The notes below the pieces were generated by a model. That model saw nothing but the letters and a program-made list of their open reading frames with translations, was not told where the DNA came from and searched no databases. Source: a virus. Taken from it: DNA of 64,000 nucleotides. The stretch lies in the IMG/VR virus record IMGVR_UViG_3300023196_002944, positions 8,655 through 72,654 of that record. One strand, written 5' to 3'. The first letter of the stretch is position 1; each line of letters begins with the position of its first letter. Shown piece after piece: positions 13,768 through 44,044 of the stretch. Position numbers and translations under genes: made by a program.

Positions 13768-13811
13768 GCCTGATGGAAGGGGAAACAACGGTCTAAAATG
13801 AGGAACCTCTA

Positions 13812-21769: not shown

Positions 21770-23667
21770 CTGCTGAAGCCACAGTTAATAACATCATTGA
21801 AGATGCACGGACTTACGCGGAAGAGAGCTACGATAATGGCGTCGGTCTGATCTCCGCCGCTATCAATGCTGCGCGTGGGTATACCTACATCACACTGGAG
21901 GCAAATCTTCCACAAATCGATGAAGTTGAGATTGCTACGATCCCCGATCCGGGCGACTTTACCGGGGTACTGGAAGCGCCGGGCACAGCACCTGTCCTCG
22001 GGGCATTCGGCCCAGTTCATATCCCGGTCTTCAGCGACCTCCGCGATGCGCCAGAGGCAATCGACACGTCGGGCCTTTTTCAGCATCCGTTACCTGACGG
22101 CTCGTTACCAACTCTCGAAGCGCAGGAACCGACGCTCACGGACCCGAATCTTCCTGTTACGCCCGTTCTGCAGGACATCACGTTCCCTACGCTTCGCCCC
22201 ATTGACTCGCCAGATGCGCCCAGCATCTCGTTGCCTGTCTTTGATGGCGTCCGTCCGCAGAACCCCCCAACGGCACCAAATGACTTGAAGTGTATGTTTG
22301 AAGATGCCTACAACTCTATGTTGCCGGAGATGCAGTCATACATCGACAATCAGGTGCTGTCTTTCATCGAACGGTATTACCCAGACTACAGCGCCAACAT
22401 GAGCAAGGCACAACTGCGGCTGGAGGAAATGCTAGATGGCAAGGCACTACCTGAAGAAATTGAGCAGGCAATCTTCGACCGGGCACGGGGGCGGGTTAAC
22501 CGGGAAGTTGTCCAGTCGGAAAGTACTGCGTTTGACATCTTTGCCAAGCGCGGTTTCTCCATGCCCCAAGGCATGTTGGCCGAAGAACTCTCACGGGGAC
22601 ATCAAACGGCTGCGGACCGAAACGCTGCTGCTGCTACGGAAATTGCCATAAAGCAGGCTGAACTTGCTCAGAGCAATTTGCAGTTTGCTATCTCGTCTGT
22701 GCTGAGTCTGCAGGAAGGTGTCCGCAGTGCAGCAATCCAGTATGCCTCGACCCTCGTCTCCACGAACGGAGCGGCGCTGCAGTATGCGCAGGGTCTGGTG
22801 GGCTCGGCTATCGAGTTGTACAACGTGCAGGTAAAGCAGTTTCAGGTCGAGGTCGACCTGTATCGGGCGTACGCCAGCGTCTATGAATTGGAGATCAAGT
22901 CGGAATTGGCGAAGATTCAAATCTTCGAATCCGAGGTTCGGCTGGCTGAGTTGCAGGGCACGCTGAACAAACTCGACGTGGAACTCGTCGCCCAGCAGGT
23001 AGCCGTATCCAAGAGTCGGATTGAACTCTACGCTGAAGAGATCAATGGTGTGAAACTCACGCTCGACGTGCAGGAACAGCAACTTGATTTGTACAAGGCA
23101 CAAGTGGATGCCTACTTGGCCAAAGTGAAGGTCAAAGAGTCGGAGTTCCGTATCTATGAAGCGGCGATGAATGGCGACACGATGAAGGTCCGCGCCAACA
23201 TCGCTGAGTTCGATGGGTTCCGCTCCGAGGCCGCAGCTTTGACGGCTGGTGGCCAGCTTGAGGTTGCCCATATGAGTGGTGACATCACACGTAACACGAA
23301 CATCGTTGACGTCTACAAGGCCGAAATTGCGCAGTATGCTGCGAACCTCGACTTCAACAAGACGACCTTCGAAGCTGACCTCAAAGCTTACCTGTCCTAT
23401 CTGGACCGGTACCGAATCCGCATCGACAGCGAAATCGCAGAGGCAAAGTTGATTCTTGATCAGCGGCTTGGAAACGCCGATATAGCTCACAAGGAAGCAC
23501 GGCATGACCTCGACCGGGCCATCACGAACAGCTCAAACTTCGTGAAGCTGACTGACATCGAAGCCACTACGACAATGCAGGGTGCCAAGGTGTATGCTGC
23601 TATTGCAGAGGCTGCAATTTCTGCACAGCACACCATGGTGCAACTGGTGAACCAGACGGTTCAGTGA
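21766..23667 (+). CDS. Putative virion/ejection protein with a Pro-rich segment and long coiled coil
   Basis: 633 aa; Pro-rich at about aa 50-175, then extended helical heptads. Confidence 0.6.
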   Translation: MTAEATVNNIIEDARTYAEESYDNGVGLISAAINAARGYTYITLEANLPQIDEVEIATIPDPGDFTGVLEAPGTAPVLGAFGPVHIPVFSDLRDAPEAIDTSGLFQHPLPDGSLPTLEAQEPTLTDPNLPVTPVLQDITFPTLRPIDSPDAPSISLPVFDGVRPQNPPTAPNDLKCMFEDAYNSMLPEMQSYIDNQVLSFIERYYPDYSANMSKAQLRLEEMLDGKALPEEIEQAIFDRARGRVNREVVQSESTAFDIFAKRGFSMPQGMLAEELSRGHQTAADRNAAAATEIAIKQAELAQSNLQFAISSVLSLQEGVRSAAIQYASTLVSTNGAALQYAQGLVGSAIELYNVQVKQFQVEVDLYRAYASVYELEIKSELAKIQIFESEVRLAELQGTLNKLDVELVAQQVAVSKSRIELYAEEINGVKLTLDVQEQQLDLYKAQVDAYLAKVKVKESEFRIYEAAMNGDTMKVRANIAEFDGFRSEAAALTAGGQLEVAHMSGDITRNTNIVDVYKAEIAQYAANLDFNKTTFEADLKAYLSYLDRYRIRIDSEIAEAKLILDQRLGNADIAHKEARHDLDRAITNSSNFVKLTDIEATTTMQGAKVYAAIAEAAISAQHTMVQLVNQTVQ

Positions 23668-23683: not shown

Positions 23684-25195
23684 ATGCCGCATACGCCAAA
23701 TCATTTTGTGAACACACCTGTAGGCCCGACGCCAGCCCCTCGGTCACGTCGGCCAGCGCCTTCATTCACTACAGGAATCAATGAACTGGTTTCGGGGGTC
23801 ACGAATCTCCGAAAAGGGTTTCGAGCCGACGTGGAAAGCAGGGCGGGACAGCCACCGATAGGTGCCATGGAATCTATCCTCTCGGGACGTGGACTTACAG
23901 GCACAGTCAAACAGCCAACTATACCCCCAGAAGCGCAATTCCGTGGGGAGTCAGGCAGCAACGTCCAGACTGGCGCTGCGCCGCTCACTGGCTCTGCCCG
24001 TTTCTCGTCGGCTGGAGCGACCAATCCTGAGCAGCCAATGAACGTGGCTGGCAACAAACCTACATCAGCCTACCTTCTATCTGAAGAGGCTGCGCGAGAC
24101 GCTGTTGTCGAGGCCAAAACAAATCAGCGATTTGGAGAAGACAAATACCCAACCCATCCCGCTTCCACGTCGCCCCATGGGTTCATGCGCAGAGGGGGAG
24201 ATCAGCCGTTTCGATTTGACCCTGACCCCAACCGGGCGGATGAAATGAATCGGCTGCAGTCGCCGGAGTATCTTCGCTACCTGAAACAGCAAGGCGCAGA
24301 ACGGTTGCCGGAAGGCGTCAACTTCAGTGCCGAAACTGGATTTACCAGTGGCGGCGGATACGGTTCAGGCAAGACTCCACAATCAGCGCAGTATGACCGC
24401 GCTGGCGAAGCTGAATTGATTAGAGGGCGGCGTGCTGACACCGCTGCTTTCATCGAAAGTCGAGGCGGCGGGGCAGAAGGGCGGCGCGAAACCAATCTGC
24501 GCCGCAAGGCTAATGCTCGTCTGTCAGGCAACATGGGCATCGTAAGCTTCGTGACGGCCGCAGCCAACCGCAAAAATGCTCGTGATGAACTGACGCAGTT
24601 GACTACCGAAAAAGGCCGTGATCGTCGCGCCTTCCTCGCTGCTGATACCAGTCGCGCAAACGTAAGAGATCAGCAGAGCGGTGCGCTTGATCGGACGCTG
24701 ATCGGTGAGCGGGGAGACACGAATCGTGCTGTGTACAAGGCAGAACAGACCGAACGGTTGGAATCGTTCAAGCAAGGTAAACTCGACGCCCGTAATCTGT
24801 TCTCCGAAGCGGCCAAGACCAACCGCGAACTGCTGAAGCAAGAGTTTACTGCGCTGAAAGAAGTGGCTGGTAGTCGCCGTAAATTGATCACTCGTGTAGC
24901 AGAACAGCATGACTCCAACGAAGCTGATTTGATAAGTTACATTGTCGATGGTGTGCGACCGGGCATAAACCAGCAGCGCGCCGAACAGAATAAAGCCCCG
25001 CTAGGCACTGATCCCGGCTTGTGGAATGATGGTGATCTGGCACTGGCACTCAGTTCTGCGGGGCCATTCCTCGCACGGCAGGCTTCCAGCAGAACTTTCT
25101 TTGGCGATCCTGCTATCGATGCTGTTGACGCACGCCGTGAAGCGGGCTCAAATTACTTCTCTTCGCGTCGCCGGAACGACAACTCCAAAGACTGA
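23684..25195 (+). CDS. Putative internal virion (ejection) protein
   Basis: 503 aa, low-complexity and hydrophilic; RBS ggag; precedes the giant protein. Confidence 0.55.
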   Translation: MPHTPNHFVNTPVGPTPAPRSRRPAPSFTTGINELVSGVTNLRKGFRADVESRAGQPPIGAMESILSGRGLTGTVKQPTIPPEAQFRGESGSNVQTGAAPLTGSARFSSAGATNPEQPMNVAGNKPTSAYLLSEEAARDAVVEAKTNQRFGEDKYPTHPASTSPHGFMRRGGDQPFRFDPDPNRADEMNRLQSPEYLRYLKQQGAERLPEGVNFSAETGFTSGGGYGSGKTPQSAQYDRAGEAELIRGRRADTAAFIESRGGGAEGRRETNLRRKANARLSGNMGIVSFVTAAANRKNARDELTQLTTEKGRDRRAFLAADTSRANVRDQQSGALDRTLIGERGDTNRAVYKAEQTERLESFKQGKLDARNLFSEAAKTNRELLKQEFTALKEVAGSRRKLITRVAEQHDSNEADLISYIVDGVRPGINQQRAEQNKAPLGTDPGLWNDGDLALALSSAGPFLARQASSRTFFGDPAIDAVDARREAGSNYFSSRRRNDNSKD

Positions 25196-25206: not shown

Positions 25207-28200
25207 ATGGCGAACGACCGTAGATTCTCAGCGACTAATGCGCTGACGCCTCGTACCATAGACGCCGACACCATCGATCTGAGGGGTCGGCGTCATCGTC
25301 TCTTCGGTGTCGGTGCCTCGGAGATGAGTACGGCTTCCGGCCGCGAGGCCACACGTCGCGCCAGTGAGTTCCTATCTCGCCCCGGCGTCACAACGCGAAC
25401 TCATGGGACGGGGTACTTCGGCCGAGCGCTATCAGAGGCTATCGGTCCTGATGGCGAGAATCTGAATGCCCGTCTTATCGAAGAAGGGCTGGCAATCTCT
25501 AGAGATTATACGGGCGTTGGAAACATCTACCCCGATGCCACGGCGAAGAGCAGACGCGAAGGCGAAGTTCCCAGTCGTGCTGCGCAGTTCCTTGAAGCCC
25601 GTGCTGCGCAGCGTGGGGACGTAGCTACTAAGTTCGACGAGAAATACGTTCCCCCAGAAGCCACGGTCACGCAGGCTCTGGGAGTCGGTGTCCGCTCTGG
25701 CGTCGACAGCCTGCAAGCTGGTGCCTACGGTATGGCCTCGGCGCTGGCCAGTATCATTTCCCCGCCTGCTGACCAGCAACCCAGTGATGACAGCGCGATT
25801 GAACGATTCGGTCGTCGCAAGCGGAATGACTTTGAGAATGGGTTCATTCGTAACAGCATCGAAGCTTCGCAGGTGCATGTAGCGCAGTCGCTCAAAGAAC
25901 TGACGGAAGGTGAAGACACCACGTTTGGTGACTGGGCACGGTGGGCCGCATTCAACGTCGGTGTTGGCGCTCCCTCGCTTGTAGCCATGGCAGCTACTAG
26001 TGGCACTGGTTTCGCCGCAGGAGCAGGCTTACGTGCTCTCAGCCTCGGTGTGGCCCGATCCCTCACCAAGAAAGGCATGAGTCGCGCTACGGCGAAACAG
26101 ATGTCAAAAGGCATCATGACCAATCTGCCGAAATACGGTGCCCGCATGGGAGCCATGATGGGGTCTGGCGTACCGCAGGGCGGTCAGATTTACGAGACGG
26201 TCAAGAATGATTACGGCGTTGATTCTGTAGGCACCGCCCTGACGACAGCCGTCATCACAGGTGGGCTGGATGTGGTTGGGCTGGAGTATGTCCTAAGAGG
26301 GCTGTTACCTGACCCGAAGAAGTACCTGTCAGAATCCATCGCTGTGAACCTCGCCAAGATGATGGCAGGCAGTTCCGCCCGAGGCATTCTTGCAGAAGCC
26401 CCGGTCGAAGCACTGCAGGAAGTCACGGCGTTGGTAGCCGAAGGCATCCATGATCCTGATGAACTGATCATGGAGAAACTGACTTCGGAAGAAGGTCGGT
26501 GGCGCATCCTTGAAGCGGCTGCGGCCGGCGCTGTGTTCGGTGGCGTGTTCGGCGGCTCTGGTGGGGTCATGTCCTACGGCCTGCAGGGTCTGCCGACGAA
26601 GCAGAAGAAAGCTAAGACCCCAGCACCAGATGCCCCGCCGCCTGATGCCCCGCCGCCTGCTATTGAGCCGCCTGATGCCCCGCCGCCTGCTGGTGCGCCG
26701 CCTGCTGGTGCGCCGCCTGCTGGTGCGCCGCCGATTGGTATTGTCTCGCCGGGCGAAGGTCCACCCCCTGATGATGGCGTACCACCAATCGGTGTCGATC
26801 CACGCAATCCGACAGCGCCACCGATCGGCCTGACGCCAACCGAAGAAGGTCGACCTGCGCCTGAGACTGTGGAGGTTTCAGAAAGAGCAACCGACGTCGA
26901 GGGCAAGCACACCTTCAGCAAGCCGCGTGAGGCGATGGAGTTCGCCAAGAACGTAAAGAAACTGTACCCCGCAGCACAGGTCAAACAGACTCGTCTTGAA
27001 GTCGAAGTGAAATTCCCAATTGATGAGGCTCCGACTGATACCGGAGTAGACCCGCGTGCTGCAAAGCCGACTGAGGCTCCAACCACTACGTCCCCAGTCG
27101 CTGAGACGCCAGCACCCGAGGCTCCCAAGACTGAGGCTCCAGTTGCTGCGCCTGTCGAGTTCAATGAAGGTGATAAAAAGCGTGGGCACAAAACAAAGCA
27201 GGAAGATCACGAAGTTGCGCTTGCCGACGGTTCTAGGCATGTCGTTAAAGGTCGCACTGTTGTGCCGCCAGAAGGTTTTGAAGACGTTCGGCTCATCGTC
27301 CACAAGATTGTAGGCGGAAAAGAATGGAAAGTTACAGAACTCGAAACTGGATACGGTATTGGTGGCACCTCCGCAACCATGAAAGAAGCCGTCGCAAACG
27401 CAAAGAAAAAGCTAAAAGATGTTGGGCGTACAGAATTCGATCTCGCTTTTGCAAGAACGCAGGAAAAAATTGCTGGTAAGGAAGCTCCGAAGACCGAAGC
27501 TCCGAAGACCGAAGCTCCGAAAGTTCCAAGGACTCCTGAAGAGTTCAAAGCGCAGCAGGAACAACGTCGTGTTGAATCTCAGGAGCGCGCTGAAAAAGAA
27601 ATCGCTGAAGTCGAAGCAGCGGGCGGTAAGGCCCGCAAGTCCAAGGGCGGCGACAAACGCGGCATCATGGAGTTTGCTGATCGTGACAAGTTCGTTGCTT
27701 ATCTGAAAGGAAAAGGCCGCGAAGATTTTATCATTGAAAATATCCTGCGTGGGCAGAGTGGCCCGTTTACTCACTTGATGGAGTATGCGCAGACTGAACA
27801 CTTCACTGCGAAGCCTGCTGCGAAGCCTGCTGCGAAGCCTGCTGCGAAGCCTGCTGCGAAGCCTGCTGCGAAGTCCGAAGTTAAATTTCTATCTAACGAA
27901 GACAAAGATGCGCTGATCGCTGTCGAAGGTGTCGTCAGCAAACTGCCGCAGGTTTTGCGCTCTCGTATAGTCAATGTAGTAGCGAAGTCCCTCGGCATAG
28001 GTGCTATCAATGAAGGACAAGTCATTGAGTGGGCAAACCGCACTTACGGAACAAACTTCAACATAGAAGCCAAGCCTTCAGATGTAAAGAAACCTGCTGC
28101 CAAGTCTGAACCGCACGAAGCTGATCCCGGTGTAAACCCACGTGCGCGTCCAGCGAAGGCTCCTGTTACTACAGCCCCGCGCCGTGCACCTAGTAACCAA

Positions 28201-31200
28201 GGTGCCAAGGGCCGGGCAGCGCGGAAACGGAGAAACGAGGCAGCGAGGCAGACTGCGCCTGCTACATCGCAGGAAGCGGCTCCGCTGCATAAGGTCGCGC
28301 CTGCAAGTGTCGCCGCCGGCACGCCGGGGATTGCCTATTCAGGTGGTGCCATAGGTTCTGACTCTGTGTGGTCTGCTGCGCTGGCTGACAAAGACGTGCC
28401 GACTGTACACATGTCGTTCGCTGGCCACAGCATAAATAAGAATGCACGCGGCCAACGTGTAGAGTTGACTCCTGAACAACTGACTGAGGCCGATGCAGCG
28501 TACAGACGTGCACGTGGTCGCCTTAATAGAAGCGGCAAACCCAGTACTGACTTTGCTACCAATCTGCAGCGCCGCAACTATTTCCAAGTGCGCGATGCCG
28601 ATGCGGTCTACGCCGTAGGTGAACTCATCATCGACAAGCGAGGGGCTGTGTCTGGTGGGACAGGGTATGCCGTTGAGTACGCCGTGCAGATGGACAAGCC
28701 TGTATTCCTGTTTGATCAGAAGCAGAACCGGTGGTTCAGCATCACCAAGGGAGCGCAGAACAACGTCGTCAAGCCTGCGGAAGTCACTCGACTGGAAGGC
28801 GACACTGTTGCGCTGATTGGCACGCGGAAGATCAGTAAGCAGGCCAAGGAAGTCATCTACACGCTGGTAGATAACACCTACAGTGTCGACCGAGGCAATG
28901 CCCCCGGTCCCACAGATGCCATGGCTGATGGTGTAGCACCAGAAGATGCAGGTGTAGGCCCGATCCAAAAAGATACGCCCGCTGTAATTGCGGTCATGAA
29001 CAGACTCAATTCACTCTTTGGCAAAGTCGAACTCAGCGACGGAGCCTATGGCAAAGGGTTAATAGCCGCAGTCAGTAAACATCTGCTGACTGACGCTGCA
29101 AATGCCAAGGGAATCCTCACGGTCGTCGAAGAGTACACGCAGAACTTTGTTACGGACCACATCTTCGATAGCCCGAAGGCGTTAATCGGCGTGCCTCTTA
29201 TTGGCCTCGACGCCCAGTTCTTCAGTTCTCAATTTGCAACTTGGAACCGCAGTAATACTTTTGAGAAACTGAATAAGGCGTTTCCGATGAATCGGAACCG
29301 CATGGTGTCAATCAACACACGCCCAGAATACAGCCTCCACGAATCGTCTGACCTCAGATACCGCGATACTTATGTGTTTGAACTTAGAAAGCCTGATGCG
29401 CGGGAATTCCGATTGACGAAACTGGCACGAAGCTGGGCAAACATGCTTGGCCTGAAACGATATGCAAAGCAGATAACAGTTACGCTTCGTGACCCAGAAG
29501 ATAGCCGCGATGACGCGTATCTTTGGGGCATATATGGCATGGCCTACACCAATGAGGCCATCATTTACATCAATCCCACACTGCTCGACCCAGCAGTGTT
29601 AAAAGACAATGCTGCGCTGAAAGGTGTTCTCGCTCATGAATTCGGGCATCTCGTTCATCGCGCAGTGATCGATGGGATGCTAGAGACGGCAGAAGGGGAC
29701 TACTTCACTCTGCTAAAAGAAATGCGGCAGTCCTACCGTACGTTTGCAGGGTTGAAACGTGGCAGCGGCGTTGTGACTGACGGCCTGACAGATCGTGCCA
29801 ATAAACTGATGGATGAGTTTAATGGCCTGCAGTCAGCACTCGTAGCTGGCACTTTGAATGATGCCGAATTCGCAGCCGCTCTCAAACAGCTTACGCCATT
29901 CATAGATACCGTCTCACAGCAGCGTGGCTTCGTTGCATCACAAGAAGTTGTAGATACGTTGCGCGTTGAGCGAGGCCAAACGCTGGCCCGCACTCCTGCC
30001 ATGACTAGTTTCATACTGGCTGTGCAGAATGGTGATCCCATCACGGATGCAATGCGAGAAAGCGCATTGAGTGATGCGCAGGATACGGTAAAGAATTTCA
30101 TCTCTAGTTATATAATTAGCCAGCCCGAGTGGTATGCCGATCAAATTGGGGCGTGGCTAAACACTAAGGAAGAGCCGAAGACAGTACTGGAGCGTTTCTT
30201 TGCCGGCCTCGCGGCGGCGATCAAGAAACTGTTTGGTCAGGCACCGCAGACGTCAGCCGACTTTGCTGGTAAGCCACCAGTCAATTCTGTCCAGAAGTTC
30301 ATGGACAGTCTGCTGGCTACATCCCGACCAATTAAGTCCAAGCCTAAGAAGCATGTGTTCAATCAGCAAGCCGAAGCGGTGCTGGATGCCATCATTGAAG
30401 AGATTGAACGCGACCCTGTAGCCAAGATCGCTGTGACTACCGTCCTAGAAGGTGATGTCACGCGCATTGGGCCGAAGCGTTCTATTGAATGGCTGCGTAA
30501 TCGGCTGAAGTTAATCTTTGATGGTACGAACGCCGAGATCGAAAATGCAATCTGGGGTGCGTTCTATATCGTATCGATGGGGGACATGTACAACGAACTG
30601 ACCCGCAACGATCCGCAGACAGACTGGGTGCCGGGCGAAGACTTGATTGTGGCCGATGATGATGGTGGCAAGGGGTCACCGTGGCGCACCGGGTTTGTGA
30701 GTGTCATCAATAACATTCGTGGCAAGCACGGTCAGGTTGCCGGCATCGACGTAGGATTCTCACTGAAGAGCATCTTCCCAAGCGGCTATGACAATAAAGG
30801 TATGGGAGCGCTGGTCAATAACCCGCGTCGTTTGCGCTCTGTCGTGGGCGGCATGCTGCCAACGGGTTACTACAACGCCCTGTCCGTAGCCTTGGAGCAG
30901 GCACGTCTGAAAATTCAGGCGGCTCCTGAGTACAACGCACAGGCCGAACGCATATATAAGAGTTTCCTAATAAACAAACGCGGCCTGCAGCGTGACTCCG
31001 AGAACCCGAATATCATTCATGTTCCAGTATCTCCGATGTTGTTTGATGCACTGGACACCAAGCACAAGGCCAAGATCGATCAGTTCATTGCTGAACAGCA
31101 GCAGTGGGCCAAGGACAATAATGTCGAGACGGCCATGACGCGGGAATCATTGATGGACCCACAGGGTCTGAACCAACTCTTCCTGACGTACAACCCCGAC

Positions 31201-34200
31201 ATGCAGCAGAAGCGTCAGGACGGCACGATGGAAGACCGTGCGTGGACGTTCTCTCTCCGCACTCATCAGGGCACCGAACTGGCGTGGGTCTGGCATGAGA
31301 ATCGGCATCGCCTGTTCCAGCAGGTTTTCGATTCCATGATCGATCAGGCCAAGAGCTACGCCAAGAATAAACTCGACACGGCTGATGAAGCCCACTACCT
31401 GCAGACCACATTGCAGTTCTTGGCTCCTGCGAAGACCACGCTCAACTCCAAGGGCGAAGAGGTGCACACGCCCCCGCAGCCCATCGATCTGGGCGTTCGT
31501 GTGCTGGCTCAATACGGTCGTAGCTTTGATGGCGGTCAGCGACGTGGGATTGAATCGCCACAGCGTCATGTACTCAACCAAGAACGCTACCTTGCCAACG
31601 GCATCACCGCCCTACTGGATAACGGCTATGTGCTACTGAATGATCGCACGATGCCTGATGGCAAGGGCACAAAGCTTGTGCCACAAGTAGTAACCGACAA
31701 GATGGGCACGCGCTTCAGGGCTGACCTCATCGTTGGTTATGGCACTGGAATTCGTACCGCTCGTCGTCTGTCTGATGCGCTCAAGGCTGTGCAGAGAGAA
31801 TCCAAACTGCACGATGAAGCTGCGTGGATCGAACGCAGCATCGAACGCAGCATGGAACGTGTCGCCGGCCTGAAGGGCAAAGTTGCTCAGTACAAACGCA
31901 TCAAGGCGCGGGCAAAATCCATTGCGTCAGCCAAGCCAAAGCTGAAAACCGCTATGGATCGTCAGTTACGCAAGGCTGAGACGGCGATTACCAATGAGAT
32001 GGAAGCCGTGTTCACCATCCTTCACGACGAAGAGACGCCGTACAGTGCGGCACTCAAGGAAGGCATGGACAAGGTGACCATGGAGTTCCTTGAAACGGAT
32101 GACATGATCGCTCTGCGCAACGAAGCGATGCAACGATTGCAGGCGGCTCAGGCAGAGAACAAACGCGTCGATATTGGTGCCCAGCTAATTGAGAATCGTG
32201 TTGGGCAGGCGGAACTGCATTCAATCTATGAAGGCATCAAGACCAAACTAGAGACCTTAGCAGGAATCGTCGACGTCACAACGGATGAAGTGGCCAAGGC
32301 CACGCACGCTTACAACGAGTCGAACACCAAGGCGAATCTCGACAAGCTGATGAAGGCACGTGCCCATCAGGGGCTGGCCATCTTGCGGCAGATGCAGCAA
32401 GTGGACCCGGATACGATCACAGATGAGTTCATCGAACAGACTATCCAATCCGACGCGTTTCTTGGTACTACGCGGCTGTACGAATTCAAGCCAGAGACGA
32501 AGCGCCAGAAAGCAGAAGTGAAAGAACGCGTCATCGATATGCAACGTACGCGTTCTGCGGCCACACTCGCGCTGCATAAGTTCAGGGATGATGTTGGCAA
32601 TGCTCTGAAGAAGCGACTGATTGAACTCGACCATAAACTGGCTACGATGACTGGTGTTGCTAACGGCCTCGTCCAGTGGGCTTCGCAGAACGGTATCCTG
32701 ATCGAAGATTTGGAGGCCGAAGGGCAGATCACAGTTGACGATGACAAGAAGGTCAGTGCGGCATTCAAAGAACTTCAGAAACATGAAGCGCGAGTGCAGT
32801 CCCTGCAGGCTAAAGTCGATGGGATGAATGCCGTGGTTACCCCGCCTGCCAAACTCGCAGAAGCGAGTGCCCAGTTACGTGAGGCTCAGGAACATCGGGA
32901 AGCCGCCTTTGCAGACGCTACGGTGCAGCGCCGAGGCAAACGCGTTCTGGATATGCGTGCATTGGAGACAGCGTATGGCAAAGCAGCCGGTGCCTACACC
33001 ATAGCCAAGCGCAAGGCGTTATCTGAACTGCAGGTATATCTGGTAGAGAACGATATCGACACGGGCGTAGATGCTGAATCTACACTGATCAGCCAAATGT
33101 CGATTCCATATGAAATACAGCGCCTGCAGCGGATGCGGCGTGAGTACATACGCGTCACGCAGATAGATGCTTTCCGTCATGCAAGCATCCCCTTGCTGGA
33201 CCAAAAGATTGCTGGCATCACGACTCAACTTGAGTCCCTGTATCTATTGAACTCTATGCGAGTTTCGGAGATTCGCAATCTGATGCCCTTAAATCGGGTA
33301 CTGCGTTCCCGGTTGGCTTCGTTAAAGCGTGAAGGGGCTCCGTTCTGGAATGGGCAGATGGCTATCGACGAAGAAGCCGAAGCTGTCGCCGCGCTGCATG
33401 AAGAAGTTGCTGAACATGAGCAGTACGGCATGGATGTCGTCGATCATAATTTGGCGCAGACAGAAACCGAAGCGGGCATGACCTTCAGCACAGATGTCGC
33501 GCTCGACCCTGACACCGGGAACCCTCTGGCGATTCAGCGATTCCGTGAGCCACGCCAGCTAGGTTCCTTGGCTTTCGAGAATGGGTTCCTGCCTGAGAAC
33601 ACCACGAAGGGTAAGGGGGCACGGAAGACAGTCACGAATCCCATGCTGGAAACAATCCAAGCCATCTATCGCGTGAGTGGTCTGGACCGGTTCGGCATCG
33701 ACTTCAACTTTGGGTTCAATGAGAAGGAAGGCATGCCCAGTCAGGTTACGATCTGGACAGAGCCGGGAATGCGAGAGCATAAGCGCAAGATCGAAGTCAC
33801 GATCAGAATCGACCCGGCGCTGAAAGATAACCCCGAGGCGATGATCCGTGATATCGCCCATGAAATGGCCCACGTCACCAAGGACGCGCTACTGGGAGTC
33901 GAGGAATCGAAGAACTCCGTAGTGTGGAAGAAGTTGATGAAGGGCTACAAGCAGTACGCGGCTGACTGGAAGGGAGAGGGTCCAGCCCCAATCTTTGAAG
34001 AGTGGTTTGCTGATCGCTTTGCTGCATGGCTGGTGGATTCGACGATGCGGGGACGTAAGTCCACCATCAAGAATGATCCGAAGACCGTTGTTGGCAAGTT
34101 CATGCGGCGGCTGGGTGACACGATCAAATCCATACTCAAGATATCCAACCCGAAGAAATCCGAAGAGGATGTGGTCTACGAATTTCTCGACATGCTGGCC

Positions 34201-36537
34201 GTGATCACGACCCGCGACACCATGCCTGACAAAATCTATGACGAATTCCGCAACCAGAACGAAATGTTCGATGAGGTATACAACCGACTGCGTGGACGGA
34301 TGGGCCAATTCCAAGAGGGGCAGGTGTCTTACTTTGCAGATGGCGGGCGTAGCGGCCCAGTCGTAGGTCGCGTGGACGAAGTGACGGCGCGGAGTCGTGT
34401 CTTCGCCATGGCATTCAGTGGAGCCAAGAACGTATGGAAGGATACGCGAGGATTCATTGCTGAGATTTATGACCGCTACATTCGGTGGGCGAACCGCTCA
34501 CTGTGGTTGCAGAAGAACTCAGATGGCAAGATCATCAAGGCCATTCGCGCTTTCGGGTTGCAGTGGTCTGATATGCCCGGCCACGCCCGTGGTGATCGTC
34601 ACCCAGTGACGGGGGAGTGGCATGACAACGTAGTCTTCATCACCCGTGCTGATGGCCGAGTGGAGACAGTCAAGATCGGTGATGAAACAATCAAGCATTC
34701 CATTGACCGGGAACGCGGCCAGTGGGTCGAGCTTAAACTGACAAAGTTGTTAGAAGAGCATGGCAATACCGAACAGCACGATCAGGTGCTGAAGTATCTG
34801 CAGTCTGAGACGCCACTAAGCAGCATTCGCAATGCTGAAGTACGTGCACATGTCTCAGCGTTCCGTGATTATCTGGATTCCTTTTACGACGACTACATCG
34901 GTGCGATGTACGAAAGCCGTCAGGGCAGCGGTGCCCCGGTGGAGTATGGCATCAAACGGTGGAATGCGAATTACTTCCCTCGCGTCCTCGACCCCCAGAT
35001 TCTGATGGAGAACAGGGATGAATTCATCACCGACGTAGTGACAAAACTCGGGTTCACACGTCAGGGAGCCGAGGAATTGTGGCAGTCGTACATGGGCAAC
35101 GACAATGTTGACGCGTGGTTCGATCCTGACCGCACCTTTGCTCCGGGCAACCCCCAAGGCAAGAGTCGTCAGCAGCAGTTGGCCGACGCCGCACCGGTGC
35201 TGGAGAAGTACATGGCGAAGAGCATGACCCACGTCATGCAGAGCTACATGCACGCCATGATCAAACGGGTTGAGTACGAGCGCCGGTATGGTGGCGTGGC
35301 CATGACTGAAGCAGGCACGCCGTACTGGGATCACGATGTAGGGTTCCAACGCTTGATGCGGCTGGCGAATGAAGAGGGCGCGTCGGCCGCGCAGTTAAAA
35401 TGGTGGTCTGAAGTGAAGGAAGGTTACCTTGGCCGTTTGGGTCAGGATATCCCGCCTGCGCTGCGCCGGTTCTACTCCCTGACGCAGACGTTTCTGAACT
35501 TCCTGTTGCTGCCGTTCGCCACGCTGTCATCGTTCGTCGATCTTGCCAATGTGATCGTGCGGTCCAACGGTTCGGTGACCTTCAGCCTTACTCACCTTCG
35601 TGATGCTTTCAAGGCCGTGCGTGAGAAAGGCGACAACGAGCTATGGAAGCTGGCCCAGACTCATGGTTTGGTGGTCGACAATGTCATGCATTCAGTGCTG
35701 GCTGAACGATTTGATACGGGGTATATGACCCCTATCTACCAGAAAATGAACGAGAAATTCTTCCGCTGGATCGGATTGCACCAGTGGACGGCCGCGATGC
35801 GCATGTATTCGTGGCAGATGGGCAAGGATTTTCTCCATAAACACGCTACAAACCGTACGGAGTATGGCGATAGCTACCTTACAGAACTGAATCTCAAGGC
35901 CGAGGATGTCCTGAACTGGTTCCATGAAGGCCAGAAGACGTGGCAGGTGACTCCGGGGGCTGAGAACGATGCTCTGGCCCGCAAAGTGACTATTGCCCTG
36001 AATCGGTTCGTCTCGGAGTCCATATTTCGCCCTGACGCCTCTCAGCGGCCGAAGTGGGCCTCTGACCCACACTGGATGCTTGTATGGCACCTGAAGCAGT
36101 TTGGCTACTCATTCTGGGCCAATCTGGTGCATCGGTTGATCGATGTAGCCAAGACGAGGCCCGGAACGCTGGCTAAAATGGCCGCATTCCTACCTTTGCT
36201 GGCCGTTCTGCCGTTTGCCATGGTAGGCATGGAGTTGCGGAATATAATCCAGTACGGAGCATCTGACGAGACCCCTTACAACCATCAGAGGGGAGCGGCT
36301 GGGTACATGGCCGAGCTAGTAGAGCGGTCAGGCGCTCTGGGGCCAATGCAGTTCCTCTGGGATGCCATGGAGTCACAGGAGCGAGGTAAGCTCTTCATCC
36401 TGTCTTTGCTTGGGCCTGCCGCGACAATGACAGAAACAGCACTCACCAAGGAACTCAGCACGGTTATCCCTCGCTTCACACCGGGGATTTCGGTGATGCC
36501 TCCCTTGCGGCACTGGCTGACAGAGCAGGTGCAATAA
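25207..36537 (+). CDS. Giant (3776 aa) putative ejection/polyvalent protein with SNase-like, SLOG-like and two HExxH metallopeptidase-like domains
   Basis: Last gene of the virion module, RBS gagg. Motifs: IDADTI...RLFGVGASE...GR...NLNARLIEEGLA; SGGAIGSD...RRN...GGTG...KPV; AHEFGH...EWYAD; AHEMAH...EEWFAD; Gly/Ala hydrophobic helices at about aa 150-460. Confidence 0.8.
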   Translation: MANDRRFSATNALTPRTIDADTIDLRGRRHRLFGVGASEMSTASGREATRRASEFLSRPGVTTRTHGTGYFGRALSEAIGPDGENLNARLIEEGLAISRDYTGVGNIYPDATAKSRREGEVPSRAAQFLEARAAQRGDVATKFDEKYVPPEATVTQALGVGVRSGVDSLQAGAYGMASALASIISPPADQQPSDDSAIERFGRRKRNDFENGFIRNSIEASQVHVAQSLKELTEGEDTTFGDWARWAAFNVGVGAPSLVAMAATSGTGFAAGAGLRALSLGVARSLTKKGMSRATAKQMSKGIMTNLPKYGARMGAMMGSGVPQGGQIYETVKNDYGVDSVGTALTTAVITGGLDVVGLEYVLRGLLPDPKKYLSESIAVNLAKMMAGSSARGILAEAPVEALQEVTALVAEGIHDPDELIMEKLTSEEGRWRILEAAAAGAVFGGVFGGSGGVMSYGLQGLPTKQKKAKTPAPDAPPPDAPPPAIEPPDAPPPAGAPPAGAPPAGAPPIGIVSPGEGPPPDDGVPPIGVDPRNPTAPPIGLTPTEEGRPAPETVEVSERATDVEGKHTFSKPREAMEFAKNVKKLYPAAQVKQTRLEVEVKFPIDEAPTDTGVDPRAAKPTEAPTTTSPVAETPAPEAPKTEAPVAAPVEFNEGDKKRGHKTKQEDHEVALADGSRHVVKGRTVVPPEGFEDVRLIVHKIVGGKEWKVTELETGYGIGGTSATMKEAVANAKKKLKDVGRTEFDLAFARTQEKIAGKEAPKTEAPKTEAPKVPRTPEEFKAQQEQRRVESQERAEKEIAEVEAAGGKARKSKGGDKRGIMEFADRDKFVAYLKGKGREDFIIENILRGQSGPFTHLMEYAQTEHFTAKPAAKPAAKPAAKPAAKPAAKSEVKFLSNEDKDALIAVEGVVSKLPQVLRSRIVNVVAKSLGIGAINEGQVIEWANRTYGTNFNIEAKPSDVKKPAAKSEPHEADPGVNPRARPAKAPVTTAPRRAPSNQGAKGRAARKRRNEAARQTAPATSQEAAPLHKVAPASVAAGTPGIAYSGGAIGSDSVWSAALADKDVPTVHMSFAGHSINKNARGQRVELTPEQLTEADAAYRRARGRLNRSGKPSTDFATNLQRRNYFQVRDADAVYAVGELIIDKRGAVSGGTGYAVEYAVQMDKPVFLFDQKQNRWFSITKGAQNNVVKPAEVTRLEGDTVALIGTRKISKQAKEVIYTLVDNTYSVDRGNAPGPTDAMADGVAPEDAGVGPIQKDTPAVIAVMNRLNSLFGKVELSDGAYGKGLIAAVSKHLLTDAANAKGILTVVEEYTQNFVTDHIFDSPKALIGVPLIGLDAQFFSSQFATWNRSNTFEKLNKAFPMNRNRMVSINTRPEYSLHESSDLRYRDTYVFELRKPDAREFRLTKLARSWANMLGLKRYAKQITVTLRDPEDSRDDAYLWGIYGMAYTNEAIIYINPTLLDPAVLKDNAALKGVLAHEFGHLVHRAVIDGMLETAEGDYFTLLKEMRQSYRTFAGLKRGSGVVTDGLTDRANKLMDEFNGLQSALVAGTLNDAEFAAALKQLTPFIDTVSQQRGFVASQEVVDTLRVERGQTLARTPAMTSFILAVQNGDPITDAMRESALSDAQDTVKNFISSYIISQPEWYADQIGAWLNTKEEPKTVLERFFAGLAAAIKKLFGQAPQTSADFAGKPPVNSVQKFMDSLLATSRPIKSKPKKHVFNQQAEAVLDAIIEEIERDPVAKIAVTTVLEGDVTRIGPKRSIEWLRNRLKLIFDGTNAEIENAIWGAFYIVSMGDMYNELTRNDPQTDWVPGEDLIVADDDGGKGSPWRTGFVSVINNIRGKHGQVAGIDVGFSLKSIFPSGYDNKGMGALVNNPRRLRSVVGGMLPTGYYNALSVALEQARLKIQAAPEYNAQAERIYKSFLINKRGLQRDSENPNIIHVPVSPMLFDALDTKHKAKIDQFIAEQQQWAKDNNVETAMTRESLMDPQGLNQLFLTYNPDMQQKRQDGTMEDRAWTFSLRTHQGTELAWVWHENRHRLFQQVFDSMIDQAKSYAKNKLDTADEAHYLQTTLQFLAPAKTTLNSKGEEVHTPPQPIDLGVRVLAQYGRSFDGGQRRGIESPQRHVLNQERYLANGITALLDNGYVLLNDRTMPDGKGTKLVPQVVTDKMGTRFRADLIVGYGTGIRTARRLSDALKAVQRESKLHDEAAWIERSIERSMERVAGLKGKVAQYKRIKARAKSIASAKPKLKTAMDRQLRKAETAITNEMEAVFTILHDEETPYSAALKEGMDKVTMEFLETDDMIALRNEAMQRLQAAQAENKRVDIGAQLIENRVGQAELHSIYEGIKTKLETLAGIVDVTTDEVAKATHAYNESNTKANLDKLMKARAHQGLAILRQMQQVDPDTITDEFIEQTIQSDAFLGTTRLYEFKPETKRQKAEVKERVIDMQRTRSAATLALHKFRDDVGNALKKRLIELDHKLATMTGVANGLVQWASQNGILIEDLEAEGQITVDDDKKVSAAFKELQKHEARVQSLQAKVDGMNAVVTPPAKLAEASAQLREAQEHREAAFADATVQRRGKRVLDMRALETAYGKAAGAYTIAKRKALSELQVYLVENDIDTGVDAESTLISQMSIPYEIQRLQRMRREYIRVTQIDAFRHASIPLLDQKIAGITTQLESLYLLNSMRVSEIRNLMPLNRVLRSRLASLKREGAPFWNGQMAIDEEAEAVAALHEEVAEHEQYGMDVVDHNLAQTETEAGMTFSTDVALDPDTGNPLAIQRFREPRQLGSLAFENGFLPENTTKGKGARKTVTNPMLETIQAIYRVSGLDRFGIDFNFGFNEKEGMPSQVTIWTEPGMREHKRKIEVTIRIDPALKDNPEAMIRDIAHEMAHVTKDALLGVEESKNSVVWKKLMKGYKQYAADWKGEGPAPIFEEWFADRFAAWLVDSTMRGRKSTIKNDPKTVVGKFMRRLGDTIKSILKISNPKKSEEDVVYEFLDMLAVITTRDTMPDKIYDEFRNQNEMFDEVYNRLRGRMGQFQEGQVSYFADGGRSGPVVGRVDEVTARSRVFAMAFSGAKNVWKDTRGFIAEIYDRYIRWANRSLWLQKNSDGKIIKAIRAFGLQWSDMPGHARGDRHPVTGEWHDNVVFITRADGRVETVKIGDETIKHSIDRERGQWVELKLTKLLEEHGNTEQHDQVLKYLQSETPLSSIRNAEVRAHVSAFRDYLDSFYDDYIGAMYESRQGSGAPVEYGIKRWNANYFPRVLDPQILMENRDEFITDVVTKLGFTRQGAEELWQSYMGNDNVDAWFDPDRTFAPGNPQGKSRQQQLADAAPVLEKYMAKSMTHVMQSYMHAMIKRVEYERRYGGVAMTEAGTPYWDHDVGFQRLMRLANEEGASAAQLKWWSEVKEGYLGRLGQDIPPALRRFYSLTQTFLNFLLLPFATLSSFVDLANVIVRSNGSVTFSLTHLRDAFKAVREKGDNELWKLAQTHGLVVDNVMHSVLAERFDTGYMTPIYQKMNEKFFRWIGLHQWTAAMRMYSWQMGKDFLHKHATNRTEYGDSYLTELNLKAEDVLNWFHEGQKTWQVTPGAENDALARKVTIALNRFVSESIFRPDASQRPKWASDPHWMLVWHLKQFGYSFWANLVHRLIDVAKTRPGTLAKMAAFLPLLAVLPFAMVGMELRNIIQYGASDETPYNHQRGAAGYMAELVERSGALGPMQFLWDAMESQERGKLFILSLLGPAATMTETALTKELSTVIPRFTPGISVMPPLRHWLTEQVQ
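26629..26733 (+). repeat. Pro-rich coding repeats (DAPPP / AGAPP, 15-nt units)
   Basis: gatgccccgccgcct three times and gctggtgcgccgcc three times. Confidence 0.85.
27481..27522 (+). repeat. 15-bp tandem repeat (EAPKT)
   Basis: gaagctccgaagacc twice plus a partial third copy. Confidence 0.85.
27808..27873 (+). repeat. Perfect 12-bp tandem repeat (AKPA x5.5)
   Basis: gcgaagcctgct five times plus gcgaag. Confidence 0.92.
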
Positions 36538-36568
36538 AAAACGGGCTAGTGCGGTAGCACCAGCCCGT
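36535..36568 (-). terminator. Intrinsic terminator at the convergence of the structural and replication modules
   Basis: Minus strand reads acgggctggtgc-tacc-gcactagcccgt followed by a T-run; the single non-WC pair is G-U on the minus strand. Confidence 0.8.
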
Positions 36569-36602
36569 CAAAACCACCGAAGAGGACACCCACCCATAGA
36601 TG

Positions 36603-38577: not shown

Positions 38578-38578
38578 G

Positions 38579-39484: not shown

Positions 39485-39487
39485 GGG

Positions 39488-41186: not shown

Positions 41187-41189
41187 GGT

Positions 41190-42247: not shown

Positions 42248-42252
42248 TGGAC

Positions 42253-44035: not shown

Positions 44036-44044
44036 TTTATTACC

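What the first reader, a model, noticed from the sequence alone, without database searches (positions are those of the whole stretch)
25207..36537. 3776-aa virion-module protein with an unusual effector cargo: SNase-like + SLOG-like + two metallopeptidase-like domains
Seen, in order: an SNase-like N-terminus (~25252-25500), Gly/Ala hydrophobic helices, Pro/Ala/Lys repeat linkers, a SLOG-like domain (~28321-28875), HEFGH...EWYAD (His at aa 1477), about 1000 aa unassigned or coiled-coil, HEMAH...EEWFAD (aa 2885) and a helical C-terminal region like those of ejection proteins. Established: phage polyvalent proteins carry zincin-like MPTase and other conflict domains and are thought to be delivered with the DNA. 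Inference: an injected, possibly self-processing polyprotein that releases counter-defence modules at entry.
Basis: partly seen in the sequence, partly recalled or inferred. Interest (0 to 1): 0.75.

Follow-up and report, generated by a model that had tools for sequence, protein, structure and literature searches.

The report
Giant phage ejection protein with enzyme cargo
This 3,776-residue phage gene encodes an oversized relative of the T7 gp16 DNA-ejection protein carrying nuclease-like, nucleotide-binding-like and two protease-like domains: a known kind of injected multi-domain phage protein with an unusual load.

Summary
ORF 25207-36537 (+) is a single 3,776-aa gene closing the structural module of a 72.6-kb phage, and every motif sits where stated. 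The SNase-like, SLOG-like and both zincin-like assignments survive testing at sequence level; fold support is weak to moderate.

New here: the C-terminal ~700 aa resemble the T7 gp16 class of internal core/ejection proteins. Its last ~525 aa mark a family of at least 2,261 50%-identity clusters. Typical members are 1.6-2.4 kaa, with a conserved hydrophobic N-module, one invariant HExxH zincin and the gp16-like C-module. About a quarter start with an SNase domain.

The family almost completely avoids cysteine: 13 in 289,940 residues. The injected N4 proteins gp50, gp51 and gp52 have none either.

This protein is an expanded member with a second zincin, a rare circularly permuted SLOG domain and about 1,000 unassigned residues.

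Ejection is inferred from homology. Self-processing and counter-defence remain untested. It is a new variant of a known kind (polyvalent/ejection proteins).

The parts
25207..36537 (+). Whole gene, 3776 aa (P0001). It is the last gene of the + strand structural module.
   Evidence: collinear 3,600-aa homologue P0002
25243..25515 (+). SNase-like (OB-fold thermonuclease) domain, aa 13-103. Equivalents of D21, R35, E43 and R87 are kept. D40 is G, T41 is A and Y85 is F.
   Evidence: As a fragment, Pfam SNase scores 21.7 bits against a cut-off of 21. All 4 PDB phmmer hits are thermonuclease, E 0.33-1.1, aligned over 13-103. The family profile hits thermonuclease at E 2.6e-11.
25654..26646 (+). Conserved N-terminal Gly/Ala-rich hydrophobic module, aa 150-480, with hydrophobic peaks at aa 341-367 and 437-455. 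It is positionally comparable to T7 gp16 TMH I.
   Evidence: Shared with about 60 of 152 family proteins. Hydropathy. Atlas gives viral clusters at 0.96, one with LPD22 in 29% of members. The T7 topology comes from PMC8954989.
26629..26732 (+). Pro-rich tandem-repeat linker (PPDAPPP / AGAPP)
27160..27417 (+). Small domain, aa 652-737. It is the only part of the variable region also present in P0002 (43% identity).
27481..27521 (+). EAPKT repeat linker
27806..27873 (+). AKPA repeat linker (5.7 copies)
28321..28884 (+). SLOG-superfamily domain, aa 1039-1226, cpYpsA/DprA-like. Motifs are SGGAIGSD, GGTGY and a C-terminal IGTRK. It appears circularly permuted relative to DprA.
29392..30345 (+). Zincin-like domain 1, aa 1396-1713: HEFGH at 1477, a ~155-aa helical insert, then the EWYAD helix at 1641.
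30364..31806 (+). Unassigned region, aa 1720-2200, shared only with P0002. It contains a third conserved HExxH (HENRH, aa 2030, nt 31294-31308).
31804..33306 (+). Pro-poor, charge-rich region that is probably long helices or coiled coil, aa 2200-2700. It is not modelled.
   Evidence: Composition only: 0-2 Pro and 35-38 charged/Gln residues per 100.
33619..34086 (+). Zincin-like domain 2, aa 2805-2960: HEMAH at 2885 and EEWFAD at 2931. This is the family's conserved zincin.
34441..36534 (+). gp16-like internal core/ejection module, aa 3079-3776. The most conserved part is aa ~3250-3775. Hydrophobic segments lie at aa 3429-3451 and 3655-3673.
36540..36569 (.). 13-bp-stem hairpin directly after the stop codon. 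The T-run is on the - strand, so it terminates the convergent - strand gene 36603-37115.
23684..25195 (+). Upstream 503-aa protein. It is Cys-free, Arg-rich, has no hydrophobic segment and matches no family. It is a candidate co-ejected partner in the gp15 / N4 gp51 position (inference).
21766..23667 (+). Upstream 633-aa protein (1 Cys), conserved two genes before the giant gene in related loci.
   Evidence: phrog_10969. 32% identity, E 5e-93, to L007:38-1942.

Best explanation
The gene encodes an enlarged member of the T7 gp16 class of podovirus internal core/ejection proteins that also serves as a carrier for enzyme cargo, that is, a 'polyvalent protein'.

Proposed mechanism, with the basis of each step marked:
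1. A few copies are packed in the capsid core on the portal. Inferred from the gp16-like fold and the gene's position.
2. On adsorption the protein is expelled through the tail in a largely unfolded state. Inferred; the complete lack of cysteine fits passage through a narrow channel and the oxidising periplasm.
3. The conserved hydrophobic N-module (aa 150-480) and the C-terminal hydrophobic segments insert in the inner membrane, like gp16 TMH I and TMH II. The gp16-C-like module forms the cytoplasmic hub that handles the incoming DNA. Inferred by analogy with T7.
4. In that topology the N-terminal SNase-like domain takes the place of the gp16 transglycosylase on the periplasmic side.
5. Everything between the two membrane modules faces the cytoplasm before any phage gene is expressed. 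That includes the permuted SLOG domain, zincin 1, about 1,000 unassigned residues and zincin 2.
6. The invariant zincin next to the C-module most likely cuts the polypeptide itself, and zincin 1 frees the lineage-specific cargo. This is the least certain step, about 40%.
7. The SLOG domain most likely binds a nucleotide-derived ligand or ssDNA. Inferred from the superfamily.

Shown here: gene integrity, domain identities at sequence level, the gp16-like fold match, the family architecture, cargo variability and cysteine avoidance.
For: Position. The gene is last in the + strand module after the portal, major head and head-closure genes. It is the same slot as N4 gp50 after gp52 and gp51.

C-module.
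- phrog_30152 'virion structural protein', E 5e-43.
- KPP25 ORF088 is annotated as a virion structural protein.
- The AF2 model has pLDDT 80-97 over aa 3079-3776.
- The single Foldseek PDB hit at E<=1e-3 is the PhiM1 C4 ejectosome, E 1.2e-4.
- BFVD gives 127 hits at E<=1e-3. They include KPP25 (5.1e-22), LPD-containing proteins and internal virion proteins of LKA1, Cota, LIMElight, VP2, RSB3 and BB8.

Family.
- 2,261 representatives at E<=1e-3 and 633 at E<=1e-30. In nearly all of the 150 listed the module runs to within about 45 residues of the C-terminus of a mostly 1.6-3.6-kaa protein; two exceptions were seen (P0102, P0061).
- The N-module is shared with about 60 of 152, and 14 share the N-terminal start.
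- An HExxH motif occurs in 121 of 124 members of 1,500 aa or more.
- In the 14 largest members the motif Glu, second His and downstream Glu are invariant and the first His is in 90% or more.

Cargo varies.
- P0002 lacks aa 470-1262 except for aa 652-737.
- Among the 14 largest members, single proteins carry NADAR (3.6e-29), cpYpsA (5.8e-23) or DUF7831.
- SLOG cargo occurs in 3 of 153.

Cysteine.
- 0 of 3,776 here, against 120 of 11,355 (1.06%) in 29 other ORFs of the window.
- 13 of 289,940 in 152 family proteins, of which 141 have none.
- N4 gp50, gp51 and gp52 have 0 Cys in 3,500, 644 and 150 aa.
- The giants of L004 and L007 and their upstream neighbours have 0 Cys.

Precedents.
- N4-like vRNAP with its two neighbours is proposed as the gp14/15/16 equivalent (PMC11445570, passages).
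- phi24B gp47, 2,811 aa with LPD domains and a metallopeptidase, was found in virions by proteomics and proposed as an ejection protein (preprint 10.64898/2026.04.10.717836, passages).
- gp16 topology comes from PMC8954989 (passages).
Against: - There are no virion data for this phage.
- gp14-like and gp15-like neighbours could not be recognised by sequence.
- No hydrophobic segment reaches a strong transmembrane score in the N-module (maximum 1.49).
- Self-processing has counter-examples. N4 vRNAP carries an MPTase yet is packaged unprocessed, according to Iyer et al..
- The SNase site lacks the Asp40 Ca2+ ligand, which most relatives keep as D or N. Nuclease activity here is therefore doubtful.
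- The periplasmic placement of the N-terminus is pure analogy.
Confidence: 0.7

Rival explanations
1. It is the same ejected gp16-class protein, but it is never cut. The cargo stays tethered to the channel at the entry site, as with N4 vRNAP. The zincins act on host targets such as envelope or cytoplasmic proteins, replacing the wall-opening enzyme of T7 gp16.
For: Iyer et al. report that N4 vRNAP has an MPTase but is packaged unprocessed, and list host-directed proteolysis as an option. No SLT or lysozyme domain was found in this protein. The phi24B preprint proposes an envelope role for the gp47 metallopeptidase.
Against: HExxH gluzincins are not the usual peptidoglycan peptidases (my own knowledge). 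Having two paralogous zincins flanking separate cargo blocks, joined by long flexible repeat linkers, fits release of pieces. Neither argument is a test.
Confidence: 0.35
2. The SNase-like and SLOG-like domains are not counter-defence effectors. They handle the phage's own DNA at entry by end binding or protection, or by ssDNA binding like DprA. The SNase fold would then be a catalytically weakened OB-fold binder.
For: The D40 Ca2+ ligand is lost in P0001 and P0002, while D21, R35, E43 and R87 are kept. The SLOG domain's best named sequence matches are DprA-like (phrog_768; DNA_processg_A in 6 of 12 family members). gp16-C itself binds DNA (PMC8954989).
Confidence: 0.3
3. It is an external or non-ejected structural protein, such as a tail, fibre or decoration component.
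For: Records of relatives annotate it only as 'virion structural protein'.
Against: It is largely helical, with no fibre-like beta repeats in the two modelled parts. Its fold neighbours are internal core proteins. It shares the cysteine-free signature with the injected N4 proteins. The cryo-EM paper on the KPP25 relative A1002 gave no passage placing it in the tail; only a 'find' search of that paper was read, and the paper mentions internal core proteins only in passing.
Confidence: 0.07
4. It is an N4-like virion RNA polymerase, with a diverged polymerase hidden in the unassigned middle (aa 1720-2800).
For: It has the same genome size class, the same gene slot, a similar length, an MPTase-containing C-terminal part and no cysteine.
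Against: BLASTP against N4 gp50 finds nothing below E 0.09. The portal and capsid are not N4-like. There is no PHROG or Pfam polymerase hit and no PF00940 match in the genome, although that search also rang in no control genome. Atlas gives only unnamed viral clusters.
Confidence: 0.03

Closest known systems
T7 gp16 (internal virion protein D) and its homologues in PhiM1, E1004 and phiKMV-like phages
   Same: The fold of the C-terminal module matches gp16 residues about 515-1267. The layout is also the same: N-terminal enzyme domain, hydrophobic region, large soluble part, C-terminal hydrophobic region. Both are the last, largest gene of the internal-protein set.
   Different: It is three times longer. 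It has no transglycosylase; the N-terminal enzyme is SNase-like. About 2,600 aa of cargo, including two zincins, are inserted. No sequence-level similarity is detectable. gp16-like sizes listed in the review are 609-1337 aa.
N4 gp50 / DEV gp71 virion RNA polymerase
   Same: Both are ~3,500-aa proteins in the same gene slot. Both carry an MPTase plus a C-terminal encapsidation region, according to Iyer et al.. Both are cysteine-free. DEV gp71 is proposed as the gp16 equivalent.
   Different: No polymerase domain and no sequence similarity were found. The rest of the virion module is not N4-like.
Polyvalent proteins (Iyer, Burroughs, Anand, de Souza & Aravind 2017, PMC5512222)
   Same: It is a large multi-domain protein in a phage late-gene context, with a zincin-like MPTase as hub domain. 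BFVD relatives are named 'Large polyvalent protein associated domain-containing protein'. The family profile's second-best PDB class is lethal factor (E 0.11-0.18), the same template that paper used for the MPTase.
   Different: The words SNase, SLOG, YpsA and NADAR occur 0 times in that paper's main text. [quoted passage not shown] Its supplementary domain tables could not be seen. No Pfam LPD model matches this protein at E<=1.
Pseudomonas phage KPP25 ORF088 (~2,009 aa) and Aeromonas phage phiA008 2,050-aa protein
   Same: They are sequence homologues of the C-module at 27-32% identity. phiA008 also has an SNase-like N-terminus, one HELGH and no cysteine.
   Different: They are about half the size, with a single zincin and no SLOG domain detected among the sampled relatives of that size.
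phi24B gp47 (2,811 aa)
   Same: It is a giant LPD and metallopeptidase protein found in podovirus virions by proteomics. It is invisible in cryo-EM and proposed as an ejection protein.
   Different: It has different domains (LPD5, LPD1, LPD38, MuF-C). Homology to this protein was not tested.

Membership tests
T7 gp16-class internal core / ejection protein | Fold of the gp16 core (gp16-C plus C-terminal membrane region) | tested here: met
T7 gp16-class internal core / ejection protein | Hydrophobic, membrane-inserting regions, including one near the C-terminus | tested here: met
   Kyte-Doolittle 19-residue peaks: 2.04 at aa 3655-3673, 1.81 at aa 3433-3451, and 1.49 and 1.34 in the N-module.
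T7 gp16-class internal core / ejection protein | Encoded after gp14-like and gp15-like genes | tested here: inconclusive
   A Cys-free 480-680-aa gene directly precedes the giant gene here and in L004, L007 and phiA008. No sequence similarity to N4 gp51 or gp52 or to the phiA008 neighbour was found, and no fold was made.
T7 gp16-class internal core / ejection protein | N-terminal lytic transglycosylase (T7-specific; absent from P22-like gp16 according to PMC8954989) | tested here: not met
   No SLT or lysozyme hit. The N-terminal domain is SNase-like instead.
T7 gp16-class internal core / ejection protein | Present inside virions and expelled at infection | not testable with these tools
   Needs proteomics, cryo-EM or ejection assays.
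Polyvalent proteins (Iyer et al. 2017) | Large polypeptide combining several unrelated domains, encoded with phage late or packaging genes | tested here: met
   At least five distinct domain types in 3,776 aa. The context is portal, capsid and head closure genes.
Polyvalent proteins (Iyer et al. 2017) | Zincin-like MPTase with HExxH plus a downstream Glu on the next conserved helix | tested here: met
   There are two copies. In the 14 largest members the motif Glu, second His and downstream Glu are invariant and the first His is in 90% or more. hhalign gives Prob 98.2 for both copies against the family zincin.
Polyvalent proteins (Iyer et al. 2017) | Match to a named LPD Pfam model | tested here: not met
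   No LPD family at E<=1. The only lead is an Atlas cluster with LPD22 in 29% of its members.
SNase (PF00565) | Sequence match over the whole OB-fold domain | tested here: met
   As a fragment it scores 21.7 bits against a cut-off of 21; in the whole protein it scores 16 bits. The family profile hits thermonuclease at E 2.6e-11. 7 of 11 members tested pass Pfam at E<=1e-3.
SNase (PF00565) | Complete catalytic and Ca2+ site (D21, D40, T41, E43, R35, R87; residue roles recalled from the literature) | tested here: not met
   D21, R35, E43 and R87 align, but D40 is G and T41 is A. Relatives mostly have D or N at that position.
SLOG superfamily (cpYpsA / DprA-like) | Rossmannoid fold with an N-terminal Gly-rich loop and a GGT-type loop | tested here: met
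SLOG superfamily (cpYpsA / DprA-like) | Pfam family score above the curated cut-off | tested here: not met
   DNA_processg_A scores 16.7 against 29.6, and cpYpsA 16.2 against 26.2. phrog_768 gives E 3.7e-11.
Gluzincin metallopeptidase | Zincin fold (mixed sheet, HExxH helix, Glu helix) | tested here: inconclusive
N4-like vRNAP | T7-like single-subunit RNA polymerase domain | tested here: not met
   No similarity to gp50. No PF00940 match, though that control search was uninformative.

The most novel reading that the evidence does not exclude
The cysteine-free gp16-like scaffold is a general delivery chassis of podoviruses, represented by at least 2,261 sequence clusters. It places pre-made effectors in the cell before any phage gene is read. 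In this phage, two zincins cut out a circularly permuted SLOG domain that soaks up or degrades a nucleotide immune signal (Thoeris-, CBASS- or type III CRISPR-type). That would be a virion-delivered sponge rather than an early-gene sponge. The N-terminal SNase-family domain works on the periplasmic side of the channel, a place where no phage nuclease is known to act.
Probability: 0.12. Interest if true: 0.8.

Novelty: new variant of a known kind. Interest (0 to 1): 0.5.

Why it matters
Injected virion proteins act before transcription, so they are the phage's first answer to host defence. Few are characterised beyond N4 vRNAP, the T7 and P22 ejection proteins and P1 Dar.

This case links two literatures. 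One is the structural 'ejectosome' class (gp16). The other is the comparative-genomic 'polyvalent protein' class. The case shows a very large, almost cysteine-free family whose conserved ends look like the ejection machine and whose middle is swappable cargo.

It offers concrete, cheap tests:
- virion proteomics and N-terminomics;
- HExxH mutants;
- a nuclease assay;
- SLOG ligand screens.

The SNase-type N-terminus, present in about a quarter of sampled members, adds a DNase class that the founding survey's main text says is absent from polyvalent proteins.

Tried and rejected
- Whole-protein phmmer against PDB found only a low-complexity AKPA match.
- NCBIfam gave only SprT at 16 bits against a cut-off of 175. 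PADLOC gave only ShosA at E 0.0088.
- DNA-level search of the portal-capsid region found one 461-bp match at 65% identity, in Achromobacter phage CF418P1.
- N4 comparisons of the giant protein, portal and capsid showed no significant similarity.
- Atlas on aa 1700-2300 returned only unnamed viral clusters at 0.90-0.91, with recognition below the useful mark.
- A search for free-standing homologues of aa 1720-2250 found none among 8,000 scored candidates of 292-930 aa.
- Foldseek PDB on the aa 1030-1720 model gave 0 hits at E<=1e-3. The SLOG match 3imk ranked 7th at E 0.13, prob 0.99.
- The third HExxH (aa 2030), compared by hhalign with the family zincin, zincin 1 and zincin 2, gave Prob 0.2, 4.1 and 0.1. 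It is not supported as a zincin, and not excluded.
- The upstream proteins showed no BLASTP similarity at E<0.05 to N4 gp51-54 or the phiA008 neighbours.
- Complex prediction of the 503-aa upstream protein with aa 3290-3776 returned the verdict 'no answer' (score 0.00). It is not evidence either way.
- Notes from earlier scans, searched by place and by sequence, were empty.
- The search for related loci in viral contigs returned only 4 loci, one of which is KPP25 itself.
- Literature searches:
  - 'internal virion protein' + 'staphylococcal nuclease' + 'phage': 0 papers.
  - 'ejection proteins' + cysteine + podovir + unfolded: 0 papers.
  - 'cysteine' occurs 0 times in the ejection-protein review PMC8954989.
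  These searches cover only the held open-access library.
- The KPP25 description (Miyata et al. 2014, Virus Res) is not in the library. Its virion-protein data were not seen.
Full report
OBSERVATION

The window is bases 8655-72654 of a single 72,654-bp virus record, which CheckV estimates as 92% complete. ORF 25207-36537 (+) is 3,776 aa. A GAGG Shine-Dalgarno sequence overlaps the stop of the preceding gene. A 13-bp-stem hairpin lies directly after the stop codon, and its T-run serves the convergent minus-strand gene.

All stated motifs are at the stated residues. The Pro/Ala/Lys linkers are true tandem DNA repeats. A 3,600-aa protein from a 72,237-bp contig is collinear with it, at 60% identity over aa 1-467 and 43% over aa 1262-3775, so the frame is one real gene.

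CONTEXT

Upstream on the same strand lie the portal (phrog_156, E 2.4e-162), the major head protein (phrog_334, E 2.2e-112), a head-closure protein and several proteins without named function. Of 10 neighbours scanned, 6 had PHROG hits.

The minus-strand module downstream encodes helicase, primase and DNA polymerase homologues. It has a lower G+C content, 0.44-0.47 against about 0.55.

The giant gene is therefore the last gene of the virion module. This is the slot occupied by gp50 in N4, where the order runs portal, capsid, gp52, gp51, gp50. The phage is not N4-like by sequence, however.

THE C-TERMINAL MODULE IS THE KEY

Residues 3320-3724 match phrog_30152 'virion structural protein' at E 5e-43. 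By tblastn the last 1,178 aa hit only 9 of 50,697 phage records, all below 60% identity. They include the ~2,009-aa virion structural protein of Pseudomonas phage KPP25 and a 2,050-aa protein of Aeromonas phage phiA008.

An exhaustive phmmer search with aa 2780-3776 found 2,261 cluster representatives at E<=1e-3, 1,744 at E<=1e-10 and 633 at E<=1e-30. In nearly all of the 150 listed the match (query positions about 470-995, aa about 3250-3775) runs to within about 45 residues of the C-terminus. I saw two exceptions (P0102 ends 127 and P0061 ends 99 residues short). Most of these proteins are 1.6-3.6 kaa, with some short ones that may be fragments.

An AlphaFold2 model of aa 2780-3776 was built with a 31-row alignment. 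It has mean pLDDT 72 and pTM 0.68, with pLDDT mostly 80-97 from aa 3079 onward. Fold searches gave:
- Foldseek against PDB: a single hit at E<=1e-3, the C4 pre-infection ejectosome of phage PhiM1 (8vb2_A, E 1.2e-4, prob 0.98). Core proteins of phage E1004 follow at E 0.035 and 0.085.
- Foldseek against BFVD: 127 hits at E<=1e-3. KPP25 structural protein is at 5.1e-22 with TM 0.50. Several are 'Large polyvalent protein associated domain-containing' proteins. Others are internal virion proteins of LKA1, Xylella phage Cota, LIMElight, VP2, RSB3 and BB8, at 1.5e-9 to 3.9e-7.

FAMILY ARCHITECTURE

Local phmmer of the whole protein against the 152 retrieved relatives showed the following:
- The hydrophobic Gly/Ala N-module (aa 150-480) is shared by about 60.
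- The extreme N-terminus (query start 14-18) is shared by 14.
- The EWYAD helix region is shared by 26.
- The zincin-2 region is shared by 8.
- aa 700-1590 and aa 1720-2800 are shared by nobody except P0002, and by P0002 only from aa 1262.

A typical member is thus SNase-like domain (optional), then hydrophobic module, variable middle, one zincin, and the gp16-like module. An HExxH motif is present in 121 of 124 members of 1,500 aa or more, and 22 have two or more. In an alignment of the 14 largest members, the motif Glu, the second His and the downstream Glu of the zincin next to the C-module are invariant. The first His is present in 90% or more.

Cargo differs between members. Among those 14, single proteins carry NADAR (E 3.6e-29), cpYpsA (5.8e-23), DUF7831 (4.7e-25), SNase or NNH2.

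SNase. In the whole protein the Pfam score is below the cut-off (16 bits). As a 150-aa fragment it just passes, at 21.7 against 21. All 4 PDB phmmer hits are S. aureus thermonuclease, aligned over aa 13-103, though only at E 0.33-1.1. A profile of 10 relatives plus this N-terminus hits thermonuclease at E 2.6e-11, and 7 of the 11 sequences pass Pfam SNase.

An HMM of the family N-terminus finds the domain in 31 of 124 full-length members, 11 of which were training rows. It is always at the N-terminus. Equivalents of D21, R35, E43 and R87 are kept. The position of the Ca2+ ligand D40 is G here and A in P0002, whereas relatives mostly show GID/GIN-x-PE. The residue roles are recalled from the SNase literature. 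The fold is therefore well supported, and catalysis in this copy is doubtful.

SLOG. phrog_768 'DprA-like' matches aa 1040-1175 at E 3.7e-11. The Pfam hits (DNA_processg_A, cpYpsA, Nuc_deoxyrib_tr) are all below their cut-offs. Eleven free-standing homologues of 180-276 aa exist, at E 9.4e-22 to 5.1e-5. SGGAxGxD, GGTGY and a C-terminal IGTR motif are invariant or nearly so.

In DprA, and in the SLOG cargo of two other family members (P0067, P0128), the IGTR strand precedes the SGGA loop. Here it follows, so the domain looks circularly permuted. The alignment evidence for this is weak.

The model of aa 1030-1720 has pLDDT 72-94 over the SLOG part. Foldseek gave no hit at E<=1e-3. The top 8 rows of the unbiased VIA search are all SLOG-superfamily proteins: 3imk at 7.6, 1rcu at 7.0, YpsA at 6.9, DprA at 6.6 and 6.1, ShosA at 6.5, MCP at 6.3 and 1weh at 6.2. 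None reaches 8. Only 3 of 153 sampled family members carry such a domain.

Domain 2 reaches only SprT-like at E 0.032. It is nevertheless paralogous to domain 1 (BLASTP E 2e-5 and 5e-6; hhalign Prob 82.5). Both domains match the zincin of 10 independent relatives at Prob 98.2, with E 2.7e-14 and 4.4e-14.

CYSTEINE AVOIDANCE

The protein has no cysteine in 3,776 residues, while 29 other ORFs of the window have 120 in 11,355 (1.06%). The 152 relatives have 13 in 289,940, and 141 of them have none.

The same holds for known injected proteins and for relatives:
- N4 gp50, gp51 and gp52 have 0 in 3,500, 644 and 150 aa.
- The phiA008 giant and its upstream neighbour have none.
- The giants of loci L004 and L007 and the genes just before them have none.
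- Here the 503-aa upstream protein has none, and the 633-aa protein has one.

I read this as a signature of proteins that must leave the capsid unfolded and cross the periplasm. I found no statement of it in the two searches made ('cysteine' occurs 0 times in PMC8954989).

MECHANISM

The review of ejection proteins (PMC8954989, passages read) describes T7 gp16 as follows:
- an N-terminal enzyme domain (transglycosylase) in the periplasm;
- a first membrane region;
- a cytoplasmic DNA-binding gp16-C;
- a C-terminal membrane region conserved in all gp16-like proteins.

There are four copies in the core stack and six after ejection. The present protein repeats that order: SNase-like domain, hydrophobic N-module, a very long middle, gp16-C-like module, and a C-terminal hydrophobic segment.

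By analogy, which is inference, the SNase-like domain would sit on the periplasmic side. The SLOG domain, both zincins and the unassigned ~1,000 aa would face the cytoplasm from the first moments of infection.

Iyer et al. propose that MPTases of polyvalent proteins autoprocess them, but they note that N4 vRNAP is packaged uncut. I therefore give self-processing about 40%. The DEV study and the phi24B preprint show that the idea of a giant, cargo-bearing ejection protein in podoviruses is already in print.

WHAT REMAINS UNKNOWN

- aa 1720-2800 has no relatives other than P0002, no family match and no model.
- A third conserved HExxH at aa 2030 follows a strand-like segment, but shows no profile similarity to the zincins.
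- The small domains between the linkers (aa 560-1030) are unassigned.
- gp14-like and gp15-like partners are not identified.

NOVELTY

The protein is a member of a large family already annotated as virion structural or LPD-containing proteins, and of the known concept of polyvalent and ejection proteins. Four things appear new against what I could read:
- the explicit fold link of this family's C-module to gp16;
- the family-wide absence of cysteine;
- the SNase-type N-terminal domain, since Iyer et al. state that no DNase other than ParB-like occurs in polyvalent proteins, although their supplements were not visible;
- this lineage's combination of a permuted SLOG domain and a duplicated zincin.

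The verdict is a new variant of a known kind, of moderate interest.

Noticed in passing
window 25207-36537 and family proteins P0002-P0153; L003 (N4 gp50, gp51, gp52): Cysteine is almost completely absent. There are 0 in 3,776 aa here and 13 in 289,940 aa across 152 relatives, against 1.06% in the phage's other proteins. N4 gp50, gp51 and gp52 also have none.
   Followed up: partly
window 31294-31308 (aa 2030-2034): A third HExxH motif (HENRH) lies after a strand-like segment in the unassigned region and is conserved as HENQH in P0002. Profile comparison with the two zincins shows no significant similarity.
   Followed up: partly
window 23684-25195 (+): A 503-aa protein that is Arg-rich and apparently disordered, with no cysteine, no hydrophobic segment and no PHROG hit. 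A Cys-free 478-681-aa gene occupies the same place before the giant gene in L004, L007 and phiA008.
   Followed up: partly
window 38001-52000: The minus-strand replication module has G+C of 0.44-0.47, against about 0.55 in the structural module. This suggests a mosaic origin.
   Followed up: no
window 12001-14000: An AT skew of 0.27, far above the rest of the window, covers the 383-aa gene between the portal and major head genes.
   Followed up: no
P0155 (free-standing SLOG homologue): One of the 11 free-standing homologues of the SLOG domain is fused to DUF4326 (E 6.3e-22).
   Followed up: no
Family members in alignment A5: Other giant members carry NADAR (3.6e-29), a canonical cpYpsA (5.8e-23), DUF7831 (4.7e-25) or an NNH2 domain as cargo, in one protein each of 14.
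   Followed up: no
window 3853-7068 (+), 1278-3119 (+), 45810-48029 (-): The first two of these large ORFs (1,071 and 613 aa) have no PHROG match. The third (739 aa) has only a weak one. The 739-aa protein is unusually Cys-rich, with 21 Cys.
   Followed up: no
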